Below are positions 1 through 38,338 of a stretch of DNA of 64,000 nt, piece after piece. Numbering within the stretch: the stretch's first letter is position 1; each line of letters starts with the position of its first letter. This DNA comes from a virus. The position numbers and the translations under genes were made by a program. The notes beneath the pieces are model-generated. The model saw only the letters and a program-made list of their open reading frames with translations, made no database searches and was not told the DNA's origin. The stretch covers positions 61,234-125,233 of IMG/VR virus record IMGVR_UViG_3300021185_003522. One strand, written 5' to 3'.

Positions 1-3000
1 CTTTGTTTCCATATGTTATCAACTAAAACAGTTTGATTAGCAGTTGATACTTCTTGTGTATCAATTACTGCAATTGTGCTTGGATTAGATAAAAGTTTGC
101 TTTCATCTGTTCTTAATTCAAAATAACTTCTATTTGCATTGGCACCATAGATACCACGTTGTATCGCCCAGTTTTCTCTGATTTCATATTCGGCTTCTTC
201 TTTGCCAAGATAGGCACTCTTGAATTGCTCTGCGGCACCTAATGTGCCTTTTGTGCCTAGAAACTGTGAATACAATCCTGCTTGTGAAATGTCATCTAAG
301 TTTAGATTCTGCATGTACTGTCTTGGACGGAAACCAATTAGTCCTAATCCTAGTAGTGTTGCATCGCTTTCTAAATTAGCAGTATGTATATCATAGTTCT
401 CACGTAGTGCATTTGCTTTAGTAGCAAGGTTTGGTAACAAGCCAGTTTGTATTTGTGAATAGTCGCTTTTAATCCAATCTGCAAATACAAATGTTCCGCT
501 TGGAGCTAGTAGTGTGGTAGCACTCCAATATGCATTTTTATAAAGAACTATCTGTCCTTTTGTATAAGATTGATTTGGCACCCATTCTCTAATGTTATCT
601 TGGTTAAGTATAAAACCCTGAGCGTCTAAGGTACCATTCCAGTCAAAGACAGTATTGCCATTCACTAAAAGTCTATTTTGCCTTGCTCCTGTGATTGGCT
701 GATATATTAAATCGTTGAATATACTTACATTGTCAAATACAATTATATGTTCATATGCAGTAAATCTTGCTAAAAGCAAACTGAAAGTATTATTATTCAA
801 TCCAATTAGTTTTAATTCGTTGCCCAGTCTTTCAACTGCATAATCTTTAGTTGTCATCGGAAGAAAGTTTTGATTTAGAATAATATCATTGATATTTTCA
901 TTTGTTAAACTTTCAACAACTGTATTTGGTTGTTCTAATTTTAGGATATTAGCGGCTGGATTTAAGTTTATAATACTTCCTTCAGTCCAACTCTGGTTTA
1001 CCCAGTATAGAAACTCTTGCGACATCTGTGTCCAATTTATGATATATTCATTTTCTACAGTGTCAAAAGTTAAGCCTTTCTTAGTCAGTAATGCCCCATA
1101 GCTCACTAAAAAGTCAACTACAGCACTTGCATTTGTAAACACATAACCGTATGGTACTTGTCTCACATTCTCGGTAAAACTTTCGGCTATACGAGTTGTT
1201 TGTCCAGCAACTGTTATTGTGCTAAATGTACCAGCATTGGCGCTTTGTAGTATTTCAAAATAAGGCTTTGCAGTTGAGTACCCTGCTACTGCATAACCAC
1301 CGCTGACTCTTTGAACTGTCACTGCCGAATATTGTATTTCTGCTATACTAGGATTTTTATAGAGAAATAGTTCATAACTTTCATCAGGTAATAAAAGACT
1401 GCTGTTTAGACTGTTAGGCGAAGATTTTTCTGAAAATATTTTTAAATAGTTTTGGTCGCTGAATGCCGCCATTCTGTAACATAATCTGACATCCATGTTG
1501 GACAAAGTATCACTTAACAATGTTGTACTATCTAAACCTGTTACTCTATTATAATCAATTATAAAATTTATGTAACTTTTCTTAATTGTATTGTTGCCAT
1601 AAATTTCTATAGTATCAGGATCAATACGGAATCTATTGTTATACAAATATTGACTAAAATCATTATTGTACTTGTATAAATCTCTATCAGCGAATAAACT
1701 AAAATATTGTGCAGGTTTTGTTAACGCTAATAATCTTTGTATAGCAAATGGATATGCACTACTTCTGCGCCACGCAGTTTCGGTTGGTCCCATATCGCCT
1801 GCTACCCAGGATTTAACAAAACTATTTCTGTCATAAGATCCAACTATTGAATCCATCGGCGGTAGTAAATTGCCTTGAGAGTCTGTTGGTAGTGCGTCGA
1901 GTAGTTGTGGTCTTACGTATTCTTTTCTTGTTACATTGCCTGTTGGGTATGCTACAATACCGTTGGCCATATCGCTCCATAATACTGTATTGCCTGATGT
2001 ATATGGTGCTGGACCATAAATTGTTTGCCACCAGGAAGGTTCTTCGGTCAACCCAACCATTTCCCATGGGCGAGTGTGCGGCGAATCAGTATCGTAGAGG
2101 TCAAAGTATATGCCTCTCCAAAATCCAAGCAAGGGTTTTTCAGATAATTTGTTTTCACTTTGACTGTAGTTCCATGTAAATTCGTTATCAGCAATATAGG
2201 TTTGATCTTTATATGGAACTCTATTTTCGCCAACCCACGTTAGAAAACTTGTATTGAGTATTGTCGTTACTTCGCCTAATGTATAATCTGTAGTTCGAAA
2301 CTGCCCAGGTATAACATCAACGGCTTGTAATGGTAATGCATATCGATCATCTGCACTTACCTTGATGTTGTTATAAATTCGTTTTTCAAATTCTAAGAGA
2401 ACATCGTTTCGATAATCACCTTGTTCGAAAGCAACAGTTAAACTTCCGTCGTGACCTTGAATCACGTTGGTTGGCGTCACATAGGTGTTATCTAAAAATT
2501 CGTATGGACGATATATTCCATACAGTCCCATCATACTAGGTGTAGCAGGTACATAACTTCCATAGGTAGTTGCGTACTCATTGATTGTGATAATATCACC
2601 ATCAGCTAGTGTTATTCGATTTGTGTTAATTGTAATACGTGGACCATCTGTAGCAACAGTGTACTCATATCCGTCACCGGTGAGTATTGTTTGTACTCCA
2701 GTGCTTATAGGTGTATAATAAACAAGTATACCTTTATAGTTTGCAGTTGTTAAATCGTAACTGAACAGTGTATCAAAAACTTCAGTTGTTATTGGCGAAA
2801 CTGTATAACTGGTCGTTTGGAATGTTGTTCCGTAAGGGATTGCATCTGTCCAATAGAAAGGACTAATGTCATTTTTTCCTGCATTAATAGCAAGAAGTGT
2901 TTCATCAAGTATTTGTGCAGTAGTTTTATTTTCCCAGTCGTTACTGCCAACATAATCAAGAATTTTCTGTTTTGTTTTTGAATATTCAATAGCGTTGAAC

Positions 3001-5951
3001 TCTATTGCACGAAAAAATTCGTAGTCTCTACCATTGATAAAATTTGTCATCATGGTAAATGGTGAACTGTGTTGCAGTACCAAATCACCATAAGGCACAA
3101 CGTTTCCAAGATCTCTTACATTATTATTTCCGTGTATCTTTCCACGAAAGTTTTCTAAATTCTCACAAATGCTTTCGTAATGTGTACGCAAAGTACCAAG
3201 TGTAAAACTTGGACTGTTTGCATTCATTGCGTTAGATTCAAGATTACTCGGGATAGTATAAAAAGCAACACTACTTGCGAAATCACTTAATACTTGTACT
3301 TCAACAGTAGCACCAGTCACTGGTTGTGTTGCAGGTTGGCCAACAATGTTTTCATTAAAAGTTACAACAGTCACATTATCGCTATTTGTTGCATATGTAT
3401 AGCTAGTAGGAAGTATAAACTTTCCTTCTACATACACCTTTACAGGAATTTTTGATGCATCATTGATTACTTCTATATCCAAAACCAAAGCAGTACCTTG
3501 ATAGGTAAAACTAAAACTTTGTCTTTGTACACTAGTCTCAAAAGATGTTTGCCATCCAAGAAGTTTATCAAATGTGTCTATACTATTATACTGCCTAACT
3601 GTGCCTGTGTCAATCTTTTTATTTTCACTAACAGTTCCATTGACATACACAAAGGAATCAGTGTACAGGTTATTATCAAATACAATGTCACCAACATTAT
3701 TAATTGTAAGATATTTTAATGGTTGATCAATTACAGTATCAGTTGTACCAGTACCAATTGCATAACTAAAAAGTTTTGAACCTTGGAAAGTAGTACTTGG
3801 ATATACTGTCGTGTCGCTAAAACTATAGCCACTACTATCAAATATATCAAACAGTGGTGGTTGATTCACACTATTTTTTTGCTGTGCAGATTGCCAGGTG
3901 GTTCCATTAAACCAGTAGACTTTTCCTTGTTGCGTATTTCCTGAAGTAACTACCACTGTGGTATTAGTATCTATGTCAGGTGTTGTTAGACTTGCTGGTT
4001 GCAAATCAATAACCTGTGTCGTGCTATCGCCAAAGTTAATAAAACTTACAGTATAGATTTTATTACGTACTTCACTATCTAAATCGTTAGCAAAAATTAC
4101 TCTTGACCCAGAAATAAAATTATACCCATCAACACTGTAACCAATAGTACCATTAATATTTGAAAATGCATCAGTTTCAGTAAAATCAATTATATCAATT
4201 GGTGCAGTAGCAATGGTTCCATAGTTAAAAAGTTTTAAATTTTTACGGAATTCAAGTATTGGACGTTTTGCTCTGTTATCATTGTTGATTACCAATGGAA
4301 TTTGATTATAATTTGCAGTTTGTTCCAATACACCAATATGGAACCATCTGTTTCCCCTTGTCCAAGCATTCTGATCAATACTTGCACGATTAATTGTCAT
4401 ATAATCCTGTGCAGTTGGCGCATTATTAGTAGCGTCAAAGTTTCCTTCATCAAAAGGTTTACTATCATAAGGCACAGTAGTGGACACGGTAAAAGTTTCT
4501 GGCGTAATAAAGTCTATTACTGGTAATAATTCAATTGCAGTTCCAACGCCCTCAATATAGTATTCATTGTTTTCATAACTAGAAGGAACAACAGTGCCTA
4601 TAAATTGTACTTTTAAGCCGTTTGTGAATACAACACCATTTGGTGAAGTATATGATGCTTTACCAATTACATCTTCAATGTTTAAATCTGCTGAATTTGC
4701 CTGTTCAACGAGACGTATGATGCCAAAGTTAGTTTCATCGTTTCCGTCTTGGTAATATAGAATATCAAGGTTTGCGGTTATCAATGGTTGGAGTTTAAAT
4801 TTTCCAGATGCATCCTTATACCATGTTTTTCCAGCATTGTCTGTACCGTATTCAATCAAAGTTTTGTTTAAATTAGCTATACTCTGTACTTTTGTAAGTT
4901 CCATAAAAGGACGAAGAGGATCTGCATAGTTAAAGTTTATTATCCATTGTACTAACTGATTCTCATCTCCAGTTATAGGATCAGTATCACTAAAGACACT
5001 ATCATCAAATCCTTGACTGTCAAAAGGTTCTTCGTTAGCCCAACCTGTAGATTGTCCTCCAACAAAAATTAATGTGCGATTTTGTAAATCAGTGATACCG
5101 TCAATTCCATCAGGATTATCCTCAAGAAATACATCAACGTACTGGTTATTAATTTGATTAAAGTTAAGTGTATTCTCAACTAAATCAGTAGATCCAATAT
5201 CTGCTAGTGTAAAGAAAAAGTTTTGATCAGTTTTACTTGGCACTGTAAATTGAACAGTACCTACATCGTCGCCATTATTAGTTACGCCAAGAACATCTCG
5301 GGAACTCTGATTTGGTTGTTGTGGTAGCGTACCCGATGTGCCAGGCACACTTTGTATAAAATATGGATGCCCGCTTGCGTTTACATTAAATGTATACCCT
5401 CCTTGCCTTACAAGAGTAAGAGTTGGTAATGCACCTGCTTCTCCTGAAAACGTGTATCCATTTTGCGTATAAGCAACATCAAAAATATCTGTTAAGGGAA
5501 CTGCATTAGAAAACACATCAACGCTGTTAGGTCCTTCAGGCACCCAATAATATTGGCTGAAATTTATATATTTGTCGTAATCTACAAAAGGATCAAAACT
5601 ATAATGTTCGCTATCAAATAACCTGTTATCTTTTATTGTGTTTGCACCTTGTAGGTTCAAACTATCAATAATTCCAGGATAGGTTATTGCATCTACGACT
5701 TTACCTGTATCAGGAGATACTTGAACTACACCAGGTTCTAATTGATAATTAGCACGAGTAGCAGTTGGTTCTAAGATATAATTGTCAGTGGCTGTTACGC
5801 CAGGACCAATCTTTCGACCAATATATCCTTCTGTTGGTTTCAATTTAGGATTTTGTGTAAGTTGGTCTAATGTACTACGTAACAACTGCTTGTTTGCAGG
5901 TGTTTGAAAAACTTCAGGTAAAAAATCTTCTGAGCGTATACGCTTCGCCAT
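1..5951 (-). CDS. Giant baseplate wedge-like virion protein (gp7-like), 3'-truncated by the window edge (>1983 aa)
   Basis: ATG at 5951 (MAKRIRSEDFLPEVFQTPANKQLLRSTLDQL...) directly follows the gp6 stop. The same frame is still open at the left edge (...DTQEVSTANQTVLVDNIWKQ). It is absent from the ORF track, which is consistent with no in-frame stop in the window. Its position after gp6 suggests a wedge subunit. Confidence 0.75.
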   Translation of the reverse strand, partial: MAKRIRSEDFLPEVFQTPANKQLLRSTLDQLTQNPKLKPTEGYIGRKIGPGVTATDNYILEPTATRANYQLEPGVVQVSPDTGKVVDAITYPGIIDSLNLQGANTIKDNRLFDSEHYSFDPFVDYDKYINFSQYYWVPEGPNSVDVFSNAVPLTDIFDVAYTQNGYTFSGEAGALPTLTLVRQGGYTFNVNASGHPYFIQSVPGTSGTLPQQPNQSSRDVLGVTNNGDDVGTVQFTVPSKTDQNFFFTLADIGSTDLVENTLNFNQINNQYVDVFLEDNPDGIDGITDLQNRTLIFVGGQSTGWANEEPFDSQGFDDSVFSDTDPITGDENQLVQWIINFNYADPLRPFMELTKVQSIANLNKTLIEYGTDNAGKTWYKDASGKFKLQPLITANLDILYYQDGNDETNFGIIRLVEQANSADLNIEDVIGKASYTSPNGVVFTNGLKVQFIGTVVPSSYENNEYYIEGVGTAIELLPVIDFITPETFTVSTTVPYDSKPFDEGNFDATNNAPTAQDYMTINRASIDQNAWTRGNRWFHIGVLEQTANYNQIPLVINNDNRAKRPILEFRKNLKLFNYGTIATAPIDIIDFTETDAFSNINGTIGYSVDGYNFISGSRVIFANDLDSEVRNKIYTVSFINFGDSTTQVIDLQPASLTTPDIDTNTTVVVTSGNTQQGKVYWFNGTTWQSAQQKNSVNQPPLFDIFDSSGYSFSDTTVYPSTTFQGSKLFSYAIGTGTTDTVIDQPLKYLTINNVGDIVFDNNLYTDSFVYVNGTVSENKKIDTGTVRQYNSIDTFDKLLGWQTSFETSVQRQSFSFTYQGTALVLDIEVINDASKIPVKVYVEGKFILPTSYTYATNSDNVTVVTFNENIVGQPATQPVTGATVEVQVLSDFASSVAFYTIPSNLESNAMNANSPSFTLGTLRTHYESICENLENFRGKIHGNNNVRDLGNVVPYGDLVLQHSSPFTMMTNFINGRDYEFFRAIEFNAIEYSKTKQKILDYVGSNDWENKTTAQILDETLLAINAGKNDISPFYWTDAIPYGTTFQTTSYTVSPITTEVFDTLFSYDLTTANYKGILVYYTPISTGVQTILTGDGYEYTVATDGPRITINTNRITLADGDIITINEYATTYGSYVPATPSMMGLYGIYRPYEFLDNTYVTPTNVIQGHDGSLTVAFEQGDYRNDVLLEFEKRIYNNIKVSADDRYALPLQAVDVIPGQFRTTDYTLGEVTTILNTSFLTWVGENRVPYKDQTYIADNEFTWNYSQSENKLSEKPLLGFWRGIYFDLYDTDSPHTRPWEMVGLTEEPSWWQTIYGPAPYTSGNTVLWSDMANGIVAYPTGNVTRKEYVRPQLLDALPTDSQGNLLPPMDSIVGSYDRNSFVKSWVAGDMGPTETAWRRSSAYPFAIQRLLALTKPAQYFSLFADRDLYKYNNDFSQYLYNNRFRIDPDTIEIYGNNTIKKSYINFIIDYNRVTGLDSTTLLSDTLSNMDVRLCYRMAAFSDQNYLKIFSEKSSPNSLNSSLLLPDESYELFLYKNPSIAEIQYSAVTVQRVSGGYAVAGYSTAKPYFEILQSANAGTFSTITVAGQTTRIAESFTENVRQVPYGYVFTNASAVVDFLVSYGALLTKKGLTFDTVENEYIINWTQMSQEFLYWVNQSWTEGSIINLNPAANILKLEQPNTVVESLTNENINDIILNQNFLPMTTKDYAVERLGNELKLIGLNNNTFSLLLARFTAYEHIIVFDNVSIFNDLIYQPITGARQNRLLVNGNTVFDWNGTLDAQGFILNQDNIREWVPNQSYTKGQIVLYKNAYWSATTLLAPSGTFVFADWIKSDYSQIQTGLLPNLATKANALRENYDIHTANLESDATLLGLGLIGFRPRQYMQNLNLDDISQAGLYSQFLGTKGTLGAAEQFKSAYLGKEEAEYEIRENWAIQRGIYGANANRSYFELRTDESKLLSNPSTIAVIDTQEVSTANQTVLVDNIWKQ

Positions 5952-5952
5952 A

Positions 5953-24495: not shown

Positions 24496-25528
24496 CATAG
24501 AACTTATAAAAGAAATAAGTTGGGTATTAAGCCTTGCTAGTGCAAAAAATAAACTAGACGTGCCAGGCGAGTATGTTTGGGCATACCCTAAGAATGAAAA
24601 CTTCAGTGAATTGCAAGCACGCAGCCGAAGTATTTTTAGCAGTGGAAATGCAATCAAAGATCCTACGGTAATTGAATATGTTCAAACATGCGATATCAAT
24701 AAGTATCTACTTGATCCGTGGATAGTAAATGCGTTTGAAGGAAATTTTGTTTCTTGGTTAACTGCGAATACTAAACATAACTTACAGAATATTGAGCTCT
24801 ACAAATACGTAGCCTTCAGTGCCGGTACTCAAGAAAGTTTTGCAAACTTTTATCTTAAAAATCGCAATAAGAGATTTAGAGTATTACGCGGTGAATACTG
24901 GTGGCATATGGATGTTTGGTCTGCACTTGGAATCAACTGGGCATATATTGAAGATGATGATATTAAAACAAATGATATAACTATTTGTAGTATTCCTTTT
25001 GCTCTTACTGGTAAAAAACACAAACATCTTGATAATATACTTGAACAGTCTCTTAAACACAATTGTGACGTTATGCTTGATTTTATCTATCTGCCAAATT
25101 GTAATCGCCCAATAGAAATAGACTTAGCACACGATGCAATCAGCGAAATAACTTTCAGTTTCAGTAAAACATTTCCAGTGCAGTGTGCAAAAATTGCAGT
25201 TCGCCTAACAAAACACAAACCGAATGACCCAATGCAAATAAGCAATGACGAAAATATTTGTAACAGACTAAGTGCAGGTTTAGCATATGATATTATACAA
25301 AAATTTCCTGTAGATTACATGCCAAGAAAATATCACAACAAACAAAAATTTTGGTGTAAGAAATTAGGTTTGGATACTTCACCGGTTGTACACTTTGCCA
25401 CAGGCGAAGATTATATAAAAGGACAACCAGCATGGTTTAGTAAATTTAATAACCAACAAGGAAGATATAATCTTGGAATGCTTTTTGAAAATGACAAGTT
25501 ATTAAAAAGTCTTGGATACCTATCATGA
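24488..25528 (+). CDS. Second PLP-dependent aminotransferase-like protein (paralog of 23076..24053)
   Basis: SAGTQESF, RFRVLRGEYWWH, SIPFALTG, DFIY and FSFSKTFPV motifs parallel those of the first copy. Confidence 0.7.
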   Translation: MTNIELIKEISWVLSLASAKNKLDVPGEYVWAYPKNENFSELQARSRSIFSSGNAIKDPTVIEYVQTCDINKYLLDPWIVNAFEGNFVSWLTANTKHNLQNIELYKYVAFSAGTQESFANFYLKNRNKRFRVLRGEYWWHMDVWSALGINWAYIEDDDIKTNDITICSIPFALTGKKHKHLDNILEQSLKHNCDVMLDFIYLPNCNRPIEIDLAHDAISEITFSFSKTFPVQCAKIAVRLTKHKPNDPMQISNDENICNRLSAGLAYDIIQKFPVDYMPRKYHNKQKFWCKKLGLDTSPVVHFATGEDYIKGQPAWFSKFNNQQGRYNLGMLFENDKLLKSLGYLS

Positions 25529-25932
25529 CCTGGACATATAAAAACAAAACAATTACAGATATCCCCGAGGGCATTATTGGGTTTGTATACTTGATTACTA
25601 ACATTACAAACAACAGAAAGTACATTGGTAAGAAACTTACTCAGTTTAAACGCAGTAAAAAGCCACTAAAAGGCAGAACAAACAAACGTAGGTATACAGT
25701 CGAAAGCGATTGGAAAGACTATTACGGAAGCAGTGATGAACTGACTGCGGATGTGGAACTATTAGGAAAAGACAAGTTTAAACGTGAAATAATGTTTTGG
25801 TGTAGCAGTAAAAGTGAACTCAGTTACATTGAAGCAAGAGAACAATTCACACACAAAGTACTAGAATCAAAACAATGGTATAACGGGCACATACGGGTCC
25901 GTGTACACCAAAAAGGCATATTGAAAGACTAA
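25525..25932 (+). CDS. Small GIY-YIG endonuclease (catalytic domain only)
   Basis: GFVYLITNITNNRKYIGKK (GIY-YIG), YYGSS, conserved Glu in SYIEARE and WYNGHI Asn motif; 135 aa with no C-terminal DNA-binding repeats. Confidence 0.85.
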   Translation: MTWTYKNKTITDIPEGIIGFVYLITNITNNRKYIGKKLTQFKRSKKPLKGRTNKRRYTVESDWKDYYGSSDELTADVELLGKDKFKREIMFWCSSKSELSYIEAREQFTHKVLESKQWYNGHIRVRVHQKGILKD

Positions 25933-25968
25933 ATTAACTACCCATATATTAACGTCATAAACACAATG

Positions 25969-26436
25969 ACACAGGCACTACTAGAGCAATGCTCAGAGCA
26001 ACTTTTTAAATTTCCCAAGCTAATATGACATCGTTTGATCGAGGTTCCTCGATCCACCTTGAAGTCTGCCAACGCAAGTTGTAGCCGACAGAACTGGTGC
26101 GTCAAAGGATAAGGCTAACTTAAGGCTAGAATGACATGGGCTCTGTGAAACAGATACAACCCATACGTTTGTATACTTTGTTTGAAGGGGTATACCAAAC
26201 GCTCCGTTGTGAGACAAGGCTAGAGTAAGGGGTACAGCACAACCGCCCCTGATACAGTAATGTAAATCTCTTTATTCAAATGACTGGATAACTCAGATGA
26301 TGACATCTTTTCAGTTCACTTGCCCGTAGTAGGGCAAGTATGACTAAACTATCTAGATGATAACTGATTACTTCGTTACACTCGTAATAAAATATTGCTG
26401 AAGCAAAGCGAAGCAATAGATGTCTTTAGACATCTA
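25969..26436 (+). ncRNA. Candidate large structured non-coding RNA (unassigned family); boundaries approximate
   Basis: Lies in a 517-nt gap in an otherwise tightly packed genome. About 10 hairpins, including GATCGAGG/CCTCGATC (26037-26054), ATGGG/CCCAT enclosing TCTG-TGAAA-CAGA, CGTTTG/CAAACG, AGGGG/CCCCT, TACA-GTAA-TGTA, ACTTGCCC/GGGCAAGT and TAGATGTC/GACATCTA. G-U pairs and the GNRA loop favour the + strand. Confidence 0.6.
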
Positions 26437-26444
26437 ATTAAATA
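26437..26444 (+). promoter_or_regulatory. Late promoter variant ATTAAATA; leaderless sulfotransferase transcript
   Basis: 5-nt spacer to the ATG at 26450; no SD. Confidence 0.6.
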
Positions 26445-26449
26445 AACAT

Positions 26450-27058
26450 ATGGGATTGATAAAGTTTAAACACAATAATAGAACTATTGCAATAGTGCGT
26501 AATCATAAATGTAGTACTACGACTATGTTGAGTTATGTAGCACAAGCATTATGGAATGCTGATCCTAAAGAAGAACAGTTCTATCAAAACTTTCAAAACG
26601 AAGCACCTGGTGTTTACAACAAGGCTAGATCATTTGAGCAGTTCGAGTCAGAGCTACTAGCCGCAGACATACGCATAGCATTGTGGCGTGATCCTGTTGA
26701 TAAGTTTGTGAGTGGTTTCTATCATACCATGACCAATCCGGCAAATAAAAATTTATGGATTAAGTCTCCTAGTCTAACCAACTTTCTCAAAGACATCGAA
26801 GTGTATAGGCAAAATCCAAACGTAGCAGATCACTGCGAAACAAACACTGCACGTCTTGGTCCTGACAGATCCATCTACACACACATCTACAACTACAAAC
26901 ACGTGCATAAGATAGCAGGAATACTCGGTGTGCCTTCATTGGACACACATCATCGCCGTGACAGTACTATGCGAGCAGGGCCTACTGAACTGCAACGACT
27001 GCGTATACGTCAGGTTATGTTAGAAGATTATGCTAATGGCTGGTGCGAGTCTGGATAG
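26450..27058 (+). CDS. Sulfotransferase-family protein
   Basis: NHKCSTTTM (5'-PSB loop-like) and WRDPVDKFVSGFYH (3'-PB motif RDPxxRxxSxY). Confidence 0.7.
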   Translation: MGLIKFKHNNRTIAIVRNHKCSTTTMLSYVAQALWNADPKEEQFYQNFQNEAPGVYNKARSFEQFESELLAADIRIALWRDPVDKFVSGFYHTMTNPANKNLWIKSPSLTNFLKDIEVYRQNPNVADHCETNTARLGPDRSIYTHIYNYKHVHKIAGILGVPSLDTHHRRDSTMRAGPTELQRLRIRQVMLEDYANGWCESG

Positions 27059-37574: not shown

Positions 37575-37648
37575 CTGTTGCACAATAATGTGTTTATGCA
37601 GACAAAACTGCGTACCCGCTAGAACGGGACTTTATAAGGAGAAAACAA

Positions 37649-38338
37649 ATGGGAAGACCGTTAAAAATTGCAAAAAGTCTTACAAAAGACATTGCGTATA
37701 ATAATCCAGGCGATGATGTTGCAAACAGAACACCATCAGGTGAATTATATTATGGTGTAGTAGGCGGAGACGTTTCGCTTAGTAGCATAACAAATCCAAT
37801 TACATCTACTAGAGTACGACCAACAGGCGGAAGTATAACTGCTGAAGGCGAAGGTTTTATTATCAAACAAAAAGGAGCTTCAAAGTTCCTAGTATCAAGA
37901 CTAGATGCAAGTGCAATTGACCCTGCAAACGCAGTGGTTGGATCCACAGTAAGAGTTGTCGCAGTAGGCGATACTGACTGGGCTTCAATGGGTGCTGGTA
38001 AAGGTACTATTGCAGTAGGAATGATTTTTACTGTAGAAGCAGCCTCAGCCGCTGGTTCTTCAGGAACAGTTGCTGAATGTGGAATATGTACATTAGCAAA
38101 CGAAGCAGATTCTGGTTTATCAACAGGAAGTATGACAGTTACTTACACTGATGTAGGATCATCATTGGTACGTCTAAAGCGTTTTAGCAACAGACATGGA
38201 ATATCTTTTGCAGATGCTCCAGTATTGTTAAACTTTTTCAACATATTAGATGACACAGTGAAAATTGGTGGATCAGGTTCGTCTGCATCACCAGCAACAC
38301 GTGATTTAGTACAAGTTGAGAATCCTGACTTAGGTTAA
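37649..38338 (+). CDS. Putative virion (head decoration-like) protein
   Basis: Follows the major capsid gene; strong SD AAGGAG; MGRPLK start; Gly/Ser/Thr-rich. Confidence 0.6.
   Translation: MGRPLKIAKSLTKDIAYNNPGDDVANRTPSGELYYGVVGGDVSLSSITNPITSTRVRPTGGSITAEGEGFIIKQKGASKFLVSRLDASAIDPANAVVGSTVRVVAVGDTDWASMGAGKGTIAVGMIFTVEAASAAGSSGTVAECGICTLANEADSGLSTGSMTVTYTDVGSSLVRLKRFSNRHGISFADAPVLLNFFNILDDTVKIGGSGSSASPATRDLVQVENPDLG

What the first reader, a model, noticed from the sequence alone, without database searches (positions are those of the whole stretch)
25933..26436. Candidate large ornate ncRNA in the only long non-coding gap
Seen: genes here overlap or abut almost everywhere, yet 517 nt separate the GIY-YIG stop from the next ATG. 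The gap is packed with helices: GATCGAGG/CCTCGATC (26037-54); ATGGG/CCCAT (26136-64) enclosing TCTG-TGAAA-CAGA; CGTTTG..TATAC/GTATA..CAAACG (26166-201); TTG-TGAGA-CAA (26207-17); AGGGG/CCCCT (26228-50); TACA-GTAA-TGTA (GNRA); AGATG/CATCT; TCAGTT/AACTGA enclosing ACTTGCCC/GGGCAAGT; TATTGCT/AGCAATA; and TAGATGTC/GACATCTA. Loop TTTGAA (26181-86) is complementary to TTCAAA (26275-80), a possible pseudoknot. AAGGCTA occurs three times (26111, 26122, 26216) with one TAGCC partner (26082). A late-like CATAAACA lies at 25956. Established: UGAAA/UGAGA pentaloops are T-loop motifs used for tertiary packing in RNase P, T-boxes and riboswitches. Inference: this is a folded RNA of 400-470 nt. I cannot match it to tmRNA, RNase P or group I/II introns. 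A replication origin is the main alternative.
Basis: partly seen in the sequence, partly recalled or inferred. Interest (0 to 1): 0.85.

Follow-up and report, generated by a model that had tools for sequence, protein, structure and literature searches.

The report
Large pseudoknotted phage RNA, twin boxes
The gene-free stretch behind a small nuclease gene of this uncultured marine T4-like phage encodes a real, roughly 410-480-base, knotted non-coding RNA from a widespread family that is almost entirely uncatalogued and whose job is still unknown.

Summary
The 517-nt gap (25933-26449) is real. It holds a + strand structured RNA, about 25953/26026 to 26435.

- **Family size.** A covariance model of the core hits 57 of 57 diverse loci.
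- **Structure.** Helices covary: 92% of cells paired against 72% in shuffles.
- **Twin boxes.** A 3' arm carries the same lineage-specific word twice: 173 of 197 RNAs, 22 different words. I found no complementary partner for it.
- **Catalogues.** No Rfam family matches the window. In a sister subfamily (3 of 20 loci tested) the 5' domain is Rfam's orphan Polynucleobacter-1 motif (RF01718). That motif is therefore a fragment of this larger RNA class.
- **Rejected readings.** An intron, tmRNA, a replication origin and a dedicated guide for the nuclease all lack support. The slot upstream holds either of two unrelated nuclease folds or neither. The next gene downstream is mostly convergent.
- **Function.** Unknown. 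My best guess is a stable, trans-acting scaffold or ribozyme-like RNA read at the twin boxes.

Earlier reports of this scan found the same family on other DNA.

The parts
25525..25932 (+). Neighbour gene, not part of the RNA: a 135-aa catalytic-domain-only GIY-YIG protein
   Evidence: Pfam SegE_GIY-YIG E 1.8e-36; phrog_447 E 2e-39. The same slot holds PDDEXK_15 in other lineages.
25953..26025 (+). Clade-specific 5' leader or promoter region, with hairpin GTCAT-AAACACA-ATGAC (25954-25970) that holds the conserved CATAAACA
   Evidence: Conserved in 9 of 10 rows of alignment A1, including two loci without the GIY-YIG gene. Absent from other subfamilies. A sigma-70-like TTGAAA-18-TATATT lies at 25921-25950, but such sites are not enriched here (3 found, 4.4 expected). 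RNA-library contigs identical to the window begin at 25960 and 25981.
26026..26104 (+). 5' domain. P1 is TGAC 26026-29 with GTCA 26101-04. P2 is the hairpin 26037-54. P3 is CACC 26055-58 with GGTG 26096-99.
   Evidence: P1 78.5% paired vs 62% in shuffles; P3 83% vs 60%; P2 61% vs 53.5%. Mutual-information pairs (137,209) and (135,211).
26113..26127 (+). Hairpin Ha with the conserved loop UAACUUAAG
   Evidence: Helix 1: 94.7% paired, 3 of 3 pairs with compensatory changes.
26136..26164 (+). Hairpin Hb. A covarying 4-5 bp stem closes an invariant 21-nt loop, GCUCUGUGAAA(C/A)AGAUACAAC (26140-26160).
   Evidence: 20-mer found in at least 119 viral and at least 119 metagenome contigs. Stem pairs: GC 21, AU 15, CG 14, UA 7 of 57 at one position; 100% paired overall.
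26166..26201 (+). Variable hairpin Hc. Its loop, 26181-26186, pairs with 26275-26280 (pseudoknot PK1).
   Evidence: Helices 4-6 (82-95% paired, 12 of 12 pairs compensatory). PK1 72% vs 50% in shuffles, for example TA 24, AT 8, CG 6 at one pair.
26206..26250 (+). Core pseudoknot. Hd is GUUGUG 26206-11 with CACAAC 26238-43, and that 3' strand lies in the loop of Hg, AGGGG 26228-32 with CCCCU 26246-50.
   Evidence: Hd 93.3% paired vs 67.6% in shuffles and at most 55% when slid, on an alignment whose model did not contain Hd. 98.3% vs 67.6% on the MAFFT alignment. Hg 98.5% vs 88%.
26222..26271 (+). Helix Hf: AGAG 26222-25 with CUCU 26268-71. It encloses Hg and the small variable hairpin 26253-64.
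   Evidence: 95% paired vs 77% in shuffles; GC 26, AT 11, TA 7 at the outer pair.
26280..26302 (+). Module M1, ending in CUC + word AGAUGAU (26295-26301)
   Evidence: Identity with M2 at the variable positions: 50 of 53, 48 of 53, 47 of 53 and 43 of 53, against shuffle means of 27, 20, 29 and 28.
26318..26339 (+). Hairpin Hm between the two modules; capped by a GNRA-type tetraloop in many relatives
   Evidence: All 34 single-sequence folds show it, with at least 8 different stem sequences. Helix 1: 5 of 7 pairs compensatory.
26340..26362 (+). Module M2, ending in UCU + the same word AGAUGAU (26355-26361)
   Evidence: 173 of 197 unique RNAs carry CTC+6-mer and TCT+the same 6-mer 40-100 nt apart; 22 different words.
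26368..26388 (+). Clade-specific small hairpin (UUAC...GUAA)
   Evidence: Present only in the window's closest relatives (alignment A1).
26393..26418 (+). Hairpin Ht2 with a conserved loop of the GAGCGNNAGCGA type (here GAAGCAAAGCGA)
   Evidence: Loop motif found in 29 of 34 representatives. Helix 2: 67% paired, 5 of 6 pairs compensatory.
26418..26435 (+). Terminal hairpin Ht3: AGAUGUC-UUUA-GACAUCU
   Evidence: 91% paired, 5 of 6 pairs compensatory. 79% vs 58% in shuffles. No U-tract follows it.

Best explanation
The gap encodes a stand-alone structured non-coding RNA on the + strand, from about 25953/26026 to 26435. It is a conserved gene of a large clade of uncultured aquatic T4-like, often jumbo, phages. 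It usually sits at the end of the gp47-gp46 recombination operon, facing the baseplate-hub genes.

Shown:
- A 5' three-helix domain.
- A hairpin that presents an invariant 21-nt loop.
- A compact core tied by two pseudoknots.
- A 3' arm in which two 23-nt modules flank a hairpin. Each module ends in the same lineage-specific 7-nt word.
- Two closing hairpins.

Inferred:
- The RNA acts in trans as a stable folded particle (my odds about 0.7 against a cis element).
- The knotted core holds the invariant loop for a conserved partner or a catalytic task.
- The twin boxes are read by a two-site or dimeric partner whose specificity drifts with the word. I favour a protein or RNP (about 0.4) over base pairing to a nucleic acid.
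- The small nuclease gene upstream is a neighbour in the recombination module, or a selfish insertion. It is not the RNA's dedicated partner.

That the stretch is a real RNA gene of this family: about 0.95. The mechanism as a whole: about 0.35-0.4.
For: - **Conservation.** 81-98% identity across the gap in 9 relatives whose flanking protein is 77-93% identical.
- **Family size.** The 20-mer occurs in at least 119 viral and at least 119 metagenome contigs. There are 54 clusters below 85% identity.
- **Model.** R1 hits 57 of 57 loci, gives one hit in the whole 64-kb window, and that hit is on the + strand only.
- **Covariation.** 92.0% of cells paired vs 72.0% in shuffles and 43-52% when slid. 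354 cells are changed on both sides against 93 in shuffles, with 0 of 500 shuffles as high.
- **Pseudoknots.** Hd was not in the model and gives 93.3% vs 67.6%. PK1 gives 72% vs 50%.
- **Strand.** G-U-rich pairs fix the strand.
- **3' helices.** 76.3% vs 60.6% in shuffles.
- **Twin boxes.**
- **Not a 5' leader.** The nearest downstream ORF of 100 aa or more lies on the opposite strand in 35 of 49 loci; it is a T4_baseplate protein in 16 of 49.
- **Independent of the nuclease.** Of 47 upstream ORFs, 25 are SegE_GIY-YIG, 11 are PDDEXK_15 and 11 are neither. 7 of 54 clusters have no same-strand ORF within 350 nt.
- **Nuclease without the RNA.** The GIY-YIG family occurs without the RNA in phages Melnitz and P-SSM2.
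- **Expression hint.** In two RNA libraries from two studies, the only contigs identical to the window lie at 25960-26235. Neither flanking gene has one.
Against: - No experiment shows a discrete transcript.
- The RNA-library data are contigs, which show neither ends, strand nor level, and DNA may be present in such libraries.
- No partner for the twin boxes or the invariant loop was found.
- 36 of 47 upstream ORFs are small nuclease-only proteins. This is more than neutral synteny would obviously predict, so a functional link is not excluded.
- No terminator follows the RNA and no significant promoter precedes it. It may therefore be processed from a longer transcript or act as a 3' UTR.
- Part of the covariation count comes from an alignment fitted to the model. 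The MAFFT-only counts and the unmodelled pseudoknot answer this.
Confidence: 0.55

Rival explanations
1. Ribozyme or self-processing RNA. The doubly pseudoknotted core with its invariant 21-nt loop is a catalytic centre. The two identical boxes are equivalent cleavage or ligation sites that release or join the roughly 60-nt segment carrying hairpin Hm.
For: An invariant loop inside fast-covarying stems and two nested pseudoknots are typical of ribozyme cores. Identical words at both borders of a hairpin-bearing segment would suit one active site acting twice. No protein partner is evident.
Against: No Rfam ribozyme family matches. RNA-library contigs bridge neither box, so nothing is known about cuts. 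The strand order Hd5'-Hf5'-Hg5'-Hd3'-Hg3'-Hf3' matches no ribozyme fold that I can recall; this is from recall, not tested.
Confidence: 0.15
2. Nuclease-RNA system. The RNA guides, scaffolds or regulates the domain-only nuclease encoded just upstream, and the twin words act as guide segments.
For: 36 of 47 upstream ORFs are 135-180-aa nuclease domains with no evident DNA-binding domain, ending about 95-210 nt before hairpin Hb. The words vary like guides, with 22 different words.
Against: - Two unrelated folds (GIY-YIG, PD-(D/E)xK) share the slot, and 11 of 47 ORFs are neither.
- Words are shared across both nuclease types.
- Close relatives L005 and L007 keep the RNA without the GIY-YIG gene.
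- The GIY-YIG family is common in cyanophages and in phage Melnitz without the RNA.
- A distant variant in a Terasakiella pusilla scaffold lies near a serine recombinase and a lytic transglycosylase instead.
- The own word and its complement are not enriched in 1.24 Mb of flanking DNA: 2.60 and 1.87 per locus, against 2.98 and 1.99 for foreign words. They are not enriched in the window either: 5 matches, 4.6 expected.
Confidence: 0.1
3. Cis-acting untranslated element. It would be a 3' UTR that stabilises or regulates the upstream operon, or a 5' leader of the downstream gene, as was assumed for the Polynucleobacter-1 motif.
For: In the window the RNA ends 14 nt before the next + strand ORF. 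No terminator or strong promoter of its own was found. Weinberg et al. 2010 rate Polynucleobacter-1 as 'probably' cis-regulatory (Table 1, read).
Against: The downstream ORF is convergent in 35 of 49 loci. The upstream genes differ or are missing. In the RF01718-bearing loci, what lies downstream of that motif is the rest of this RNA, not a gene. About 400 nt with two pseudoknots is far more than known bacterial UTR elements need; this last point is inference.
Confidence: 0.1
4. DNA element. The hairpins and direct repeats would be a replication origin, iterons or a recombination site read as DNA.
For: Two direct repeats that change in concert resemble protein-binding iterons. The locus lies between convergent transcription units.
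Against: G-U pairs on one strand only and compensatory changes in long-range pseudoknots. G+C above the flanks rather than an AT-rich unwinding element. No skew inflection beyond the change of gene strand.
Confidence: 0.03
5. Self-splicing group I or II intron carrying a homing-endonuclease ORF, as in the T4 td, nrdB and nrdD introns.
For: It is a T4-like phage with a GIY-YIG ORF next to about 450 nt of pseudoknotted RNA.
Against: No Rfam intron model matches at E up to 10. The ORF overlaps the preceding gene's stop (ATGA), as in an operon. There is no downstream exon: the next gene is convergent in 35 of 49 loci. The RNA persists without the ORF.
Confidence: 0.02

Closest known systems
Polynucleobacter-1 RNA motif (Rfam RF01718; Weinberg et al. 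2010, Genome Biol 11:R31, PMC2864571; I read Table 1 and its legend only, and the supplements were not available)
   Same: In 3 of 20 metagenome loci that carry the family's 20-mer, RF01718 matches at 91.5-95 bits on the same strand and ends 36 nt 5' of the 20-mer. The same loci match my core model at about 102 bits. One of them, read by eye, has the pseudoknot core, the twin boxes and both closing hairpins, behind a GIY-YIG-like ORF end. RF01718 is thus the 5' domain of a sister subfamily.
   Different: The window's own 5' domain does not match RF01718. There was no match at E up to 10 in the window's genome, 0 of 5 divergent members matched, and none of 12 viral loci matched at E up to 1. 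RF01718 covers 141 nt and was rated probably cis-regulatory. The RNA described here is about three times longer, and the 'downstream' of RF01718 is more RNA.
GOLLD (RF01998) and ROOL (RF03087): large ornate RNAs of phages and prophages (accession numbers recalled; abstract of bioRxiv 10.1101/2024.12.08.627333 seen in a search listing)
   Same: Several hundred nucleotides, multi-domain and pseudoknotted, phage-borne, function unknown, found by comparative genomics.
   Different: No sequence or structure match in Rfam. Smaller. Has the twin-box arm. Whether it multimerises as GOLLD and ROOL do was not tested.
HEARO / omega RNAs of IscB and TnpB (nuclease-associated guide RNAs)
   Same: A large structured RNA next to a small nuclease gene, with a short variable segment.
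   Different: Here the neighbouring nuclease is of two unrelated folds or absent. The variable word is 7 nt, internal and duplicated. No target was found. No Rfam match.
Box C/D RNAs
   Same: AUGAUGA- and CUGA-like strings occur twice in direct repeat. The only Rfam matches in the arm are two C/D snoRNA models.
   Different: Those matches score 17.8 and 17.5 bits against gathering scores of 44 and 45 (E 1.6 and 5.2). The words vary (AUCA, AUAA, GUAA, GAAA), so the G-A pairs of a kink-turn are not conserved.
Phage group I introns with GIY-YIG endonuclease ORFs (T4 td / I-TevI type)
   Same: T4-like phage, GIY-YIG ORF, adjacent pseudoknotted RNA.
   Different: No exons, no intron-model match, and a different helix order.

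Membership tests
Polynucleobacter-1 (RF01718) | Match to the Rfam covariance model at or above its gathering score (37 bits) | tested here: not met
   No match at E up to 10 in the window's 125-kb genome. Nothing in the Rfam scan of 25800-26600. The model does work on sister loci, at 91.5-95 bits.
Polynucleobacter-1 (RF01718) | Shares the rest of the RNA with RF01718-bearing loci (superfamily relationship) | tested here: met
   RF01718-positive loci L201, L165 and L218 match core model R1 at about 102 bits, E about 5e-32. L218 shows the same core, twin boxes and closing hairpins.
The uncatalogued phage RNA family defined here (core model R1) | Invariant loop GCUCUGUGAAA(C/A)AGAUACAAC closed by a covarying stem | tested here: met
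   26140-26160. Stem 100% paired in 57 of 57 sequences, with 4 pair types.
The uncatalogued phage RNA family defined here (core model R1) | Pseudoknot of the strand after UCCG with the loop of the GGGGG/CCUCC hairpin | tested here: met
   26206-11 with 26238-43; 93.3% paired across 57 sequences.
The uncatalogued phage RNA family defined here (core model R1) | The same word twice, after CUC and after UCU, on either side of a hairpin | tested here: met
   AGAUGAU at 26295-301 and 26355-361. 173 of 197 family RNAs have such a pair.
Group I intron | Match to Rfam Intron_gpI, and coding exons on both sides that join into one frame | tested here: not met
   No intron family at E up to 10. The downstream ORF is convergent in 35 of 49 loci.
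Group II intron | Domain V/VI match (Rfam) and a reverse-transcriptase ORF | tested here: not met
   No Rfam match. Neighbouring ORFs carry no RT domain.
tRNA / tmRNA | tRNA-like domain found by ARAGORN | tested here: not met
   0 genes in the whole window.
GOLLD, ROOL, HEARO, OLE, RNase P and other large Rfam RNAs | Covariance-model match | tested here: not met
   The only match in the window at gathering score is freshwater-2 at 37579-37651. Only chance-level matches lie in the gap.
Box C/D RNA | Conserved C (RUGAUGA) and D (CUGA) boxes able to form kink-turns | tested here: not met
   17.8 and 17.5 bits against gathering scores of 44 and 45. The box-like words vary among relatives.
RNA-guided nuclease system | One dedicated effector family always linked to the RNA, and a guide with findable targets | tested here: not met
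   25 GIY-YIG, 11 PDDEXK_15 and 11 other of 47 upstream ORFs. No enrichment of the word or its complement in the flanks. Binding and cleavage are not testable with these tools.

The most novel reading that the evidence does not exclude
The twin boxes are programmable recognition words. The knotted core would be a new kind of phage ribonucleoprotein or ribozyme that reads, by base pairing, two copies of a short nucleic-acid site. Candidates are two anticodon-type loops (the words are mostly NNAUGAN, NNAUAAN or NNAUCAN, that is, a codon-like triplet followed by A) or a repeated RNA or DNA site in the host. The word would then re-target the RNA from lineage to lineage.
Probability: 0.12. Interest if true: 0.9.

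Novelty: new variant of a known kind. Interest (0 to 1): 0.7.

Why it matters
- **A new large RNA class.** Large RNAs with several pseudoknots are rare. Nearly every one studied has turned out to be a ribozyme, a riboswitch or an unusual assembly. It has no assigned function.
- **A catalogue correction.** The orphan Rfam family Polynucleobacter-1, held since 2010 to be a probable cis-regulator, is the 5' third of a longer RNA of this class.
- **A direct experimental handle.** Two identical words that change together invite word swaps and pull-downs.
- **A possible culturable entry point.** A distant variant lies in a scaffold of the isolate Terasakiella pusilla DSM 6293.
- **An ordinary outcome remains possible.** If the RNA is only a stable decoy or a UTR, the finding is a well-supported new phage ncRNA family.

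Tried and rejected
**Searches that found nothing**
- Rfam at gathering score over the window, and at E up to 10 over the gap: nothing relevant.
- ARAGORN: none.
- blastn of the gap, and of a second family member, against 50,697 phage records: no match.
- PDB sequence search with the GIY-YIG protein: none.
- Isolates. The 21-mer with up to 2 mismatches is absent from Melnitz and P-SSM2. Model R1 with filters off finds nothing better than E 1.5 in the gp46 neighbourhoods of PA5oct, Phosso and Atu_ph07.

**Bacterial genomes**
- The 20-mer matched 8 stretches. My own arithmetic gives about 4 chance matches for 19 fixed bases in 596 Gb on both strands.
- Only L152, L153 (short MAG contigs) and L157 match the core model over its length.
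- L156 matches the hairpin plus its stem only.
- L151, L154, L155 and L158 match only the 20-mer, and I treat them as chance.

**Partner of the twin words**
- No consistently placed complement, G-U allowed, within -400 to +700 in 34 representatives; 5 have none at all.
- No mutual-information partner among the top 70 column pairs.
- Own word not enriched in the flanks or in the window.
- The 'longest direct repeat' statistic was too blunt (7-8 nt observed, 6-7 nt in shuffles), so I replaced it with column identity.

**Structure attempts**
- RNAalifold with default settings recovered only two helices from MAFFT alignments. Ribosum scoring and hand curation were needed.
- I did not build a second covariance model for the 3' half. 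I counted pairs on the MAFFT alignment instead.

**RNA libraries**
- Parts of the stretch without contigs in the RNA libraries are not evidence of anything.
- The joint 25935 to 26080 in one contig of X15 probably comes from a relative with another leader. I did not follow it up.

**Literature**
- Searches found no description of this RNA. 'Polynucleobacter-1' occurs in one held paper only.
- The supplements of Weinberg et al. 2010, which hold the motif's alignment and commentary, were not available and may bear on how much of the longer RNA was seen then.
Full report
**Observation.** The GIY-YIG ORF ends at 25932 and the next long + strand ORF starts at 26450, which leaves 517 nt. The + strand folds to -129.2 kcal/mol against -111.2 +/- 5.7 for shuffles (z -3.15, 0 of 100 as good). 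The - strand gives z -2.44. The claim that this is the only long non-coding gap is too strong: 4756-5952 has no ORF of 45 aa or more, and the first 6 kb are poor in long ORFs.

**Not a catalogued RNA.** Rfam 15 at gathering score finds only freshwater-2 at 37579-37651 in the whole window. At E up to 10 the gap gives five chance-level matches; the best are two box C/D snoRNA models at 17.8 and 17.5 bits against cut-offs of 44 and 45. ARAGORN finds nothing. blastn against 50,697 phage records finds nothing.

**Conservation.**
- Nine viral contigs that encode the downstream 202-aa protein at 77-93% identity carry the gap at 81-98% nucleotide identity.
- Two of them (L005, L007) have other sequence where the window has the GIY-YIG gene.
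- In L012, whose 346-aa upstream protein is only 62% identical, blocks of the gap are still nearly invariant while helices have changed on both sides.
- One invariant 20-mer, CTCTGTGAAANAGATACAAC (window 26141-26160), occurs in at least 119 viral contigs and at least 119 metagenome contigs.
- The viral matches give 120 distinct contexts. The 109 full-length contexts among them fall into 54 clusters below 85% identity.

**Structure.**
- I built covariance model R1 (174 positions, 32 pairs) from 24 sequences of the central part. It gives one hit in the window, 26089-26262 on the + strand, at 151.5 bits. It hits 57 of 57 loci offered.
- On that alignment 92.0% of cells pair, against 72.0% in shuffles and 43-52% when the partner is slid. 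22 of 32 pairs have changes on both sides. 354 cells are so changed against 93 in shuffles.
- That alignment is fitted to the model, so I counted again on sequence-only MAFFT alignments. The main helices hold there. Figures are given under the observation check and under parts.
- Many pairs are G-U in most sequences, so the folding strand is the + strand.
- Two pseudoknots are supported. GUUGUG 26206-11 pairs with CACAAC 26238-43 inside the loop of the AGGGG/CCCCU hairpin. It gives 93.3% paired against 67.6% in shuffles, on an alignment whose model held a competing helix, and 98.3% on MAFFT.
- AGAG 26222-25 with CUCU 26268-71 encloses the core (95% against 77%).

**Twin boxes.**
- Mutual information also picked out column pairs that change to the same letter rather than to the complement.
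- They belong to two 23-nt modules, 26280-26302 and 26340-26362, on either side of hairpin 26318-39. Each module ends in AGAUGAU, after CUC in the first and after UCU in the second.
- At the variable positions the two copies are identical in 50, 48, 47 and 43 of 53 representatives, against shuffle means of 27, 20, 29 and 28.
- Over all loci held, 173 of 197 distinct RNAs have CTC+6-mer followed 40-100 nt later by TCT+the same 6-mer. There are 22 different words.
- I found no complementary partner inside or near the RNA. The word and its complement are not enriched in 1.24 Mb of flanking DNA or in the window.
- I saw the repeat before I looked at earlier notes of this scan. Those notes describe it as well, and I have taken the term 'twin box' from them.

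**Context.**
- In 47 of 54 clusters a same-strand ORF ends within 350 nt upstream. Of those 47 ORFs (with the window's own ORF standing in for its near-identical relative L001), 25 are SegE_GIY-YIG, 11 are PDDEXK_15 and 11 are neither.
- PHROGs files the first family under a family mislabelled 'NAD synthetase' and the second under 'RusA-like Holliday junction resolvase'.
- A gp46-sized ORF (585-593 aa) lies further upstream in at least 9 loci. The window's own is AAA_23/SMC_N.
- The nearest downstream ORF of 100 aa or more is on the opposite strand in 35 of 49 loci, and it is a T4_baseplate protein in 16 of 49.
- The RNA is thus a fixed feature at the junction of the recombination operon and the baseplate-hub operon. 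The nuclease slot in front of it is filled variably.
- The GIY-YIG family is present in 501 phage records, mostly cyanophages. In Melnitz and P-SSM2 it stands in other places with no RNA behind it.
- These facts fit a neighbour better than a dedicated partner. It could be a recombination nuclease displaced by a non-homologous one, or a selfish endonuclease next to a conserved target.

**Relation to Polynucleobacter-1.**
- The model finds nothing in the window's genome at E up to 10, nothing in five divergent members, and nothing at E up to 1 in 12 viral loci.
- In 3 of 20 metagenome loci with the 20-mer it matches at 91.5-95 bits, on the RNA strand, ending 36 nt 5' of the 20-mer. The same loci match R1 at about 102 bits.
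- L218 shows the GIY-YIG-like ORF end, then RF01718, then the invariant hairpin, the pseudoknot core, twin boxes (CUC/UCU + GGAUGAAG) and both closing hairpins.
- RF01718 is therefore an alternative 5' domain in a sister subfamily.
- The 2010 rating of that motif as probably cis-regulatory (Table 1 of PMC2864571) rests on what is in fact more RNA downstream.
- 'Polynucleobacter-1' occurs in only that one paper of the held library.

**Distribution.**
- The closest isolates by gp46 are PA5oct, Phosso and Atu_ph07, at 41-48% identity. R1 finds nothing at their gp46 loci.
- Among bacterial genome contigs, two short MAG contigs carry the full core.
- A 7-kb scaffold of Terasakiella pusilla DSM 6293 carries a distant variant (40.7 bits, E 1.3e-11). 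It has its own twin boxes (CUC/UCU + GGUUGAUG) and lies near a serine recombinase and a lytic transglycosylase.

**Expression.**
- Six RNA libraries hold parts of the stretch.
- I laid four of them. In two, from two different studies, the only contigs identical to the window lie at 25960-26235, with none on either flanking gene.
- The other two, from one study, have contigs of relatives over the RNA and the neighbours alike.
- Contigs cannot show ends, strand or level, so this is a hint of an abundant RNA and no more.

**What it most likely is.** It is a stand-alone, stable, trans-acting folded RNA of these phages. The knotted core presents an invariant loop, and the 3' arm presents two copies of a drifting word to a two-site reader. 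Only the structure and the context are shown; the mode of action is inference. Ribozyme, nuclease partner, UTR element, DNA element and intron are ranked as rivals with their tests.

**Novelty.** This is a new variant of a known kind: a large phage-borne structured RNA of unknown function. It is uncatalogued except that one subfamily's 5' third is RF01718. Earlier reports of this scan reached similar conclusions on other genomes.

Noticed in passing
window 37579-37651 (+): Match to Rfam freshwater-2 RNA (RF02980): 55.8 bits against a gathering score of 49.9, over the full model length. This is a second structured-RNA candidate in the same phage.
   Followed up: no
window 4756-5952, and 1-5952 in general: About 1.2 kb with no ORF of 45 aa or more on either strand. 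The first 6 kb have no ORF of 100 aa or more. No Rfam or tRNA match there. This could be a block of very small early genes or further non-coding elements.
   Followed up: partly
L157 2780-3100 (Terasakiella pusilla DSM 6293 scaffold): A distant variant of the RNA core (R1 40.7 bits) with its own twin boxes. It lies in a cultured bacterium's scaffold beside a serine recombinase and an SLT transglycosylase rather than T4-like genes. This is a possible culturable system.
   Followed up: partly
L156 2300-2400 (- strand; 468-kb Alphaproteobacteria MAG contig): A G+C-rich copy of the invariant hairpin with a matching GCGGG/CCCGC stem, followed by a hairpin and UCCCG. Only 31 model positions match. 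It may be a remote, shorter relative.
   Followed up: no
L279 7410-8425 (Sinorhizobium phage Phosso) and L278 7867-8531 (Pseudomonas phage PA5oct): Unannotated gaps of about 1.0 kb and 0.66 kb near the gp46 and resolvase genes of the nearest cultured relatives. Model R1 finds nothing significant there. Some other element may occupy the equivalent place.
   Followed up: partly
L005 2599-4011: In one close relative a 471-aa ORF is inserted between the RNA and the homologue of the window's 202-aa gene.
   Followed up: no
window 25525-25932 and phage records: This roughly 140-aa GIY-YIG family (phrog_447) is annotated 'NAD synthetase' in many cyanophage records. Given the SegE_GIY-YIG match, this looks like a propagated mis-annotation.
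   Followed up: no
window 25935-26080: One RNA-library contig (run X15, depth 67.9) joins 25935 to 26080 and skips 144 nt. It probably comes from a relative with a different 5' leader.
   Followed up: no
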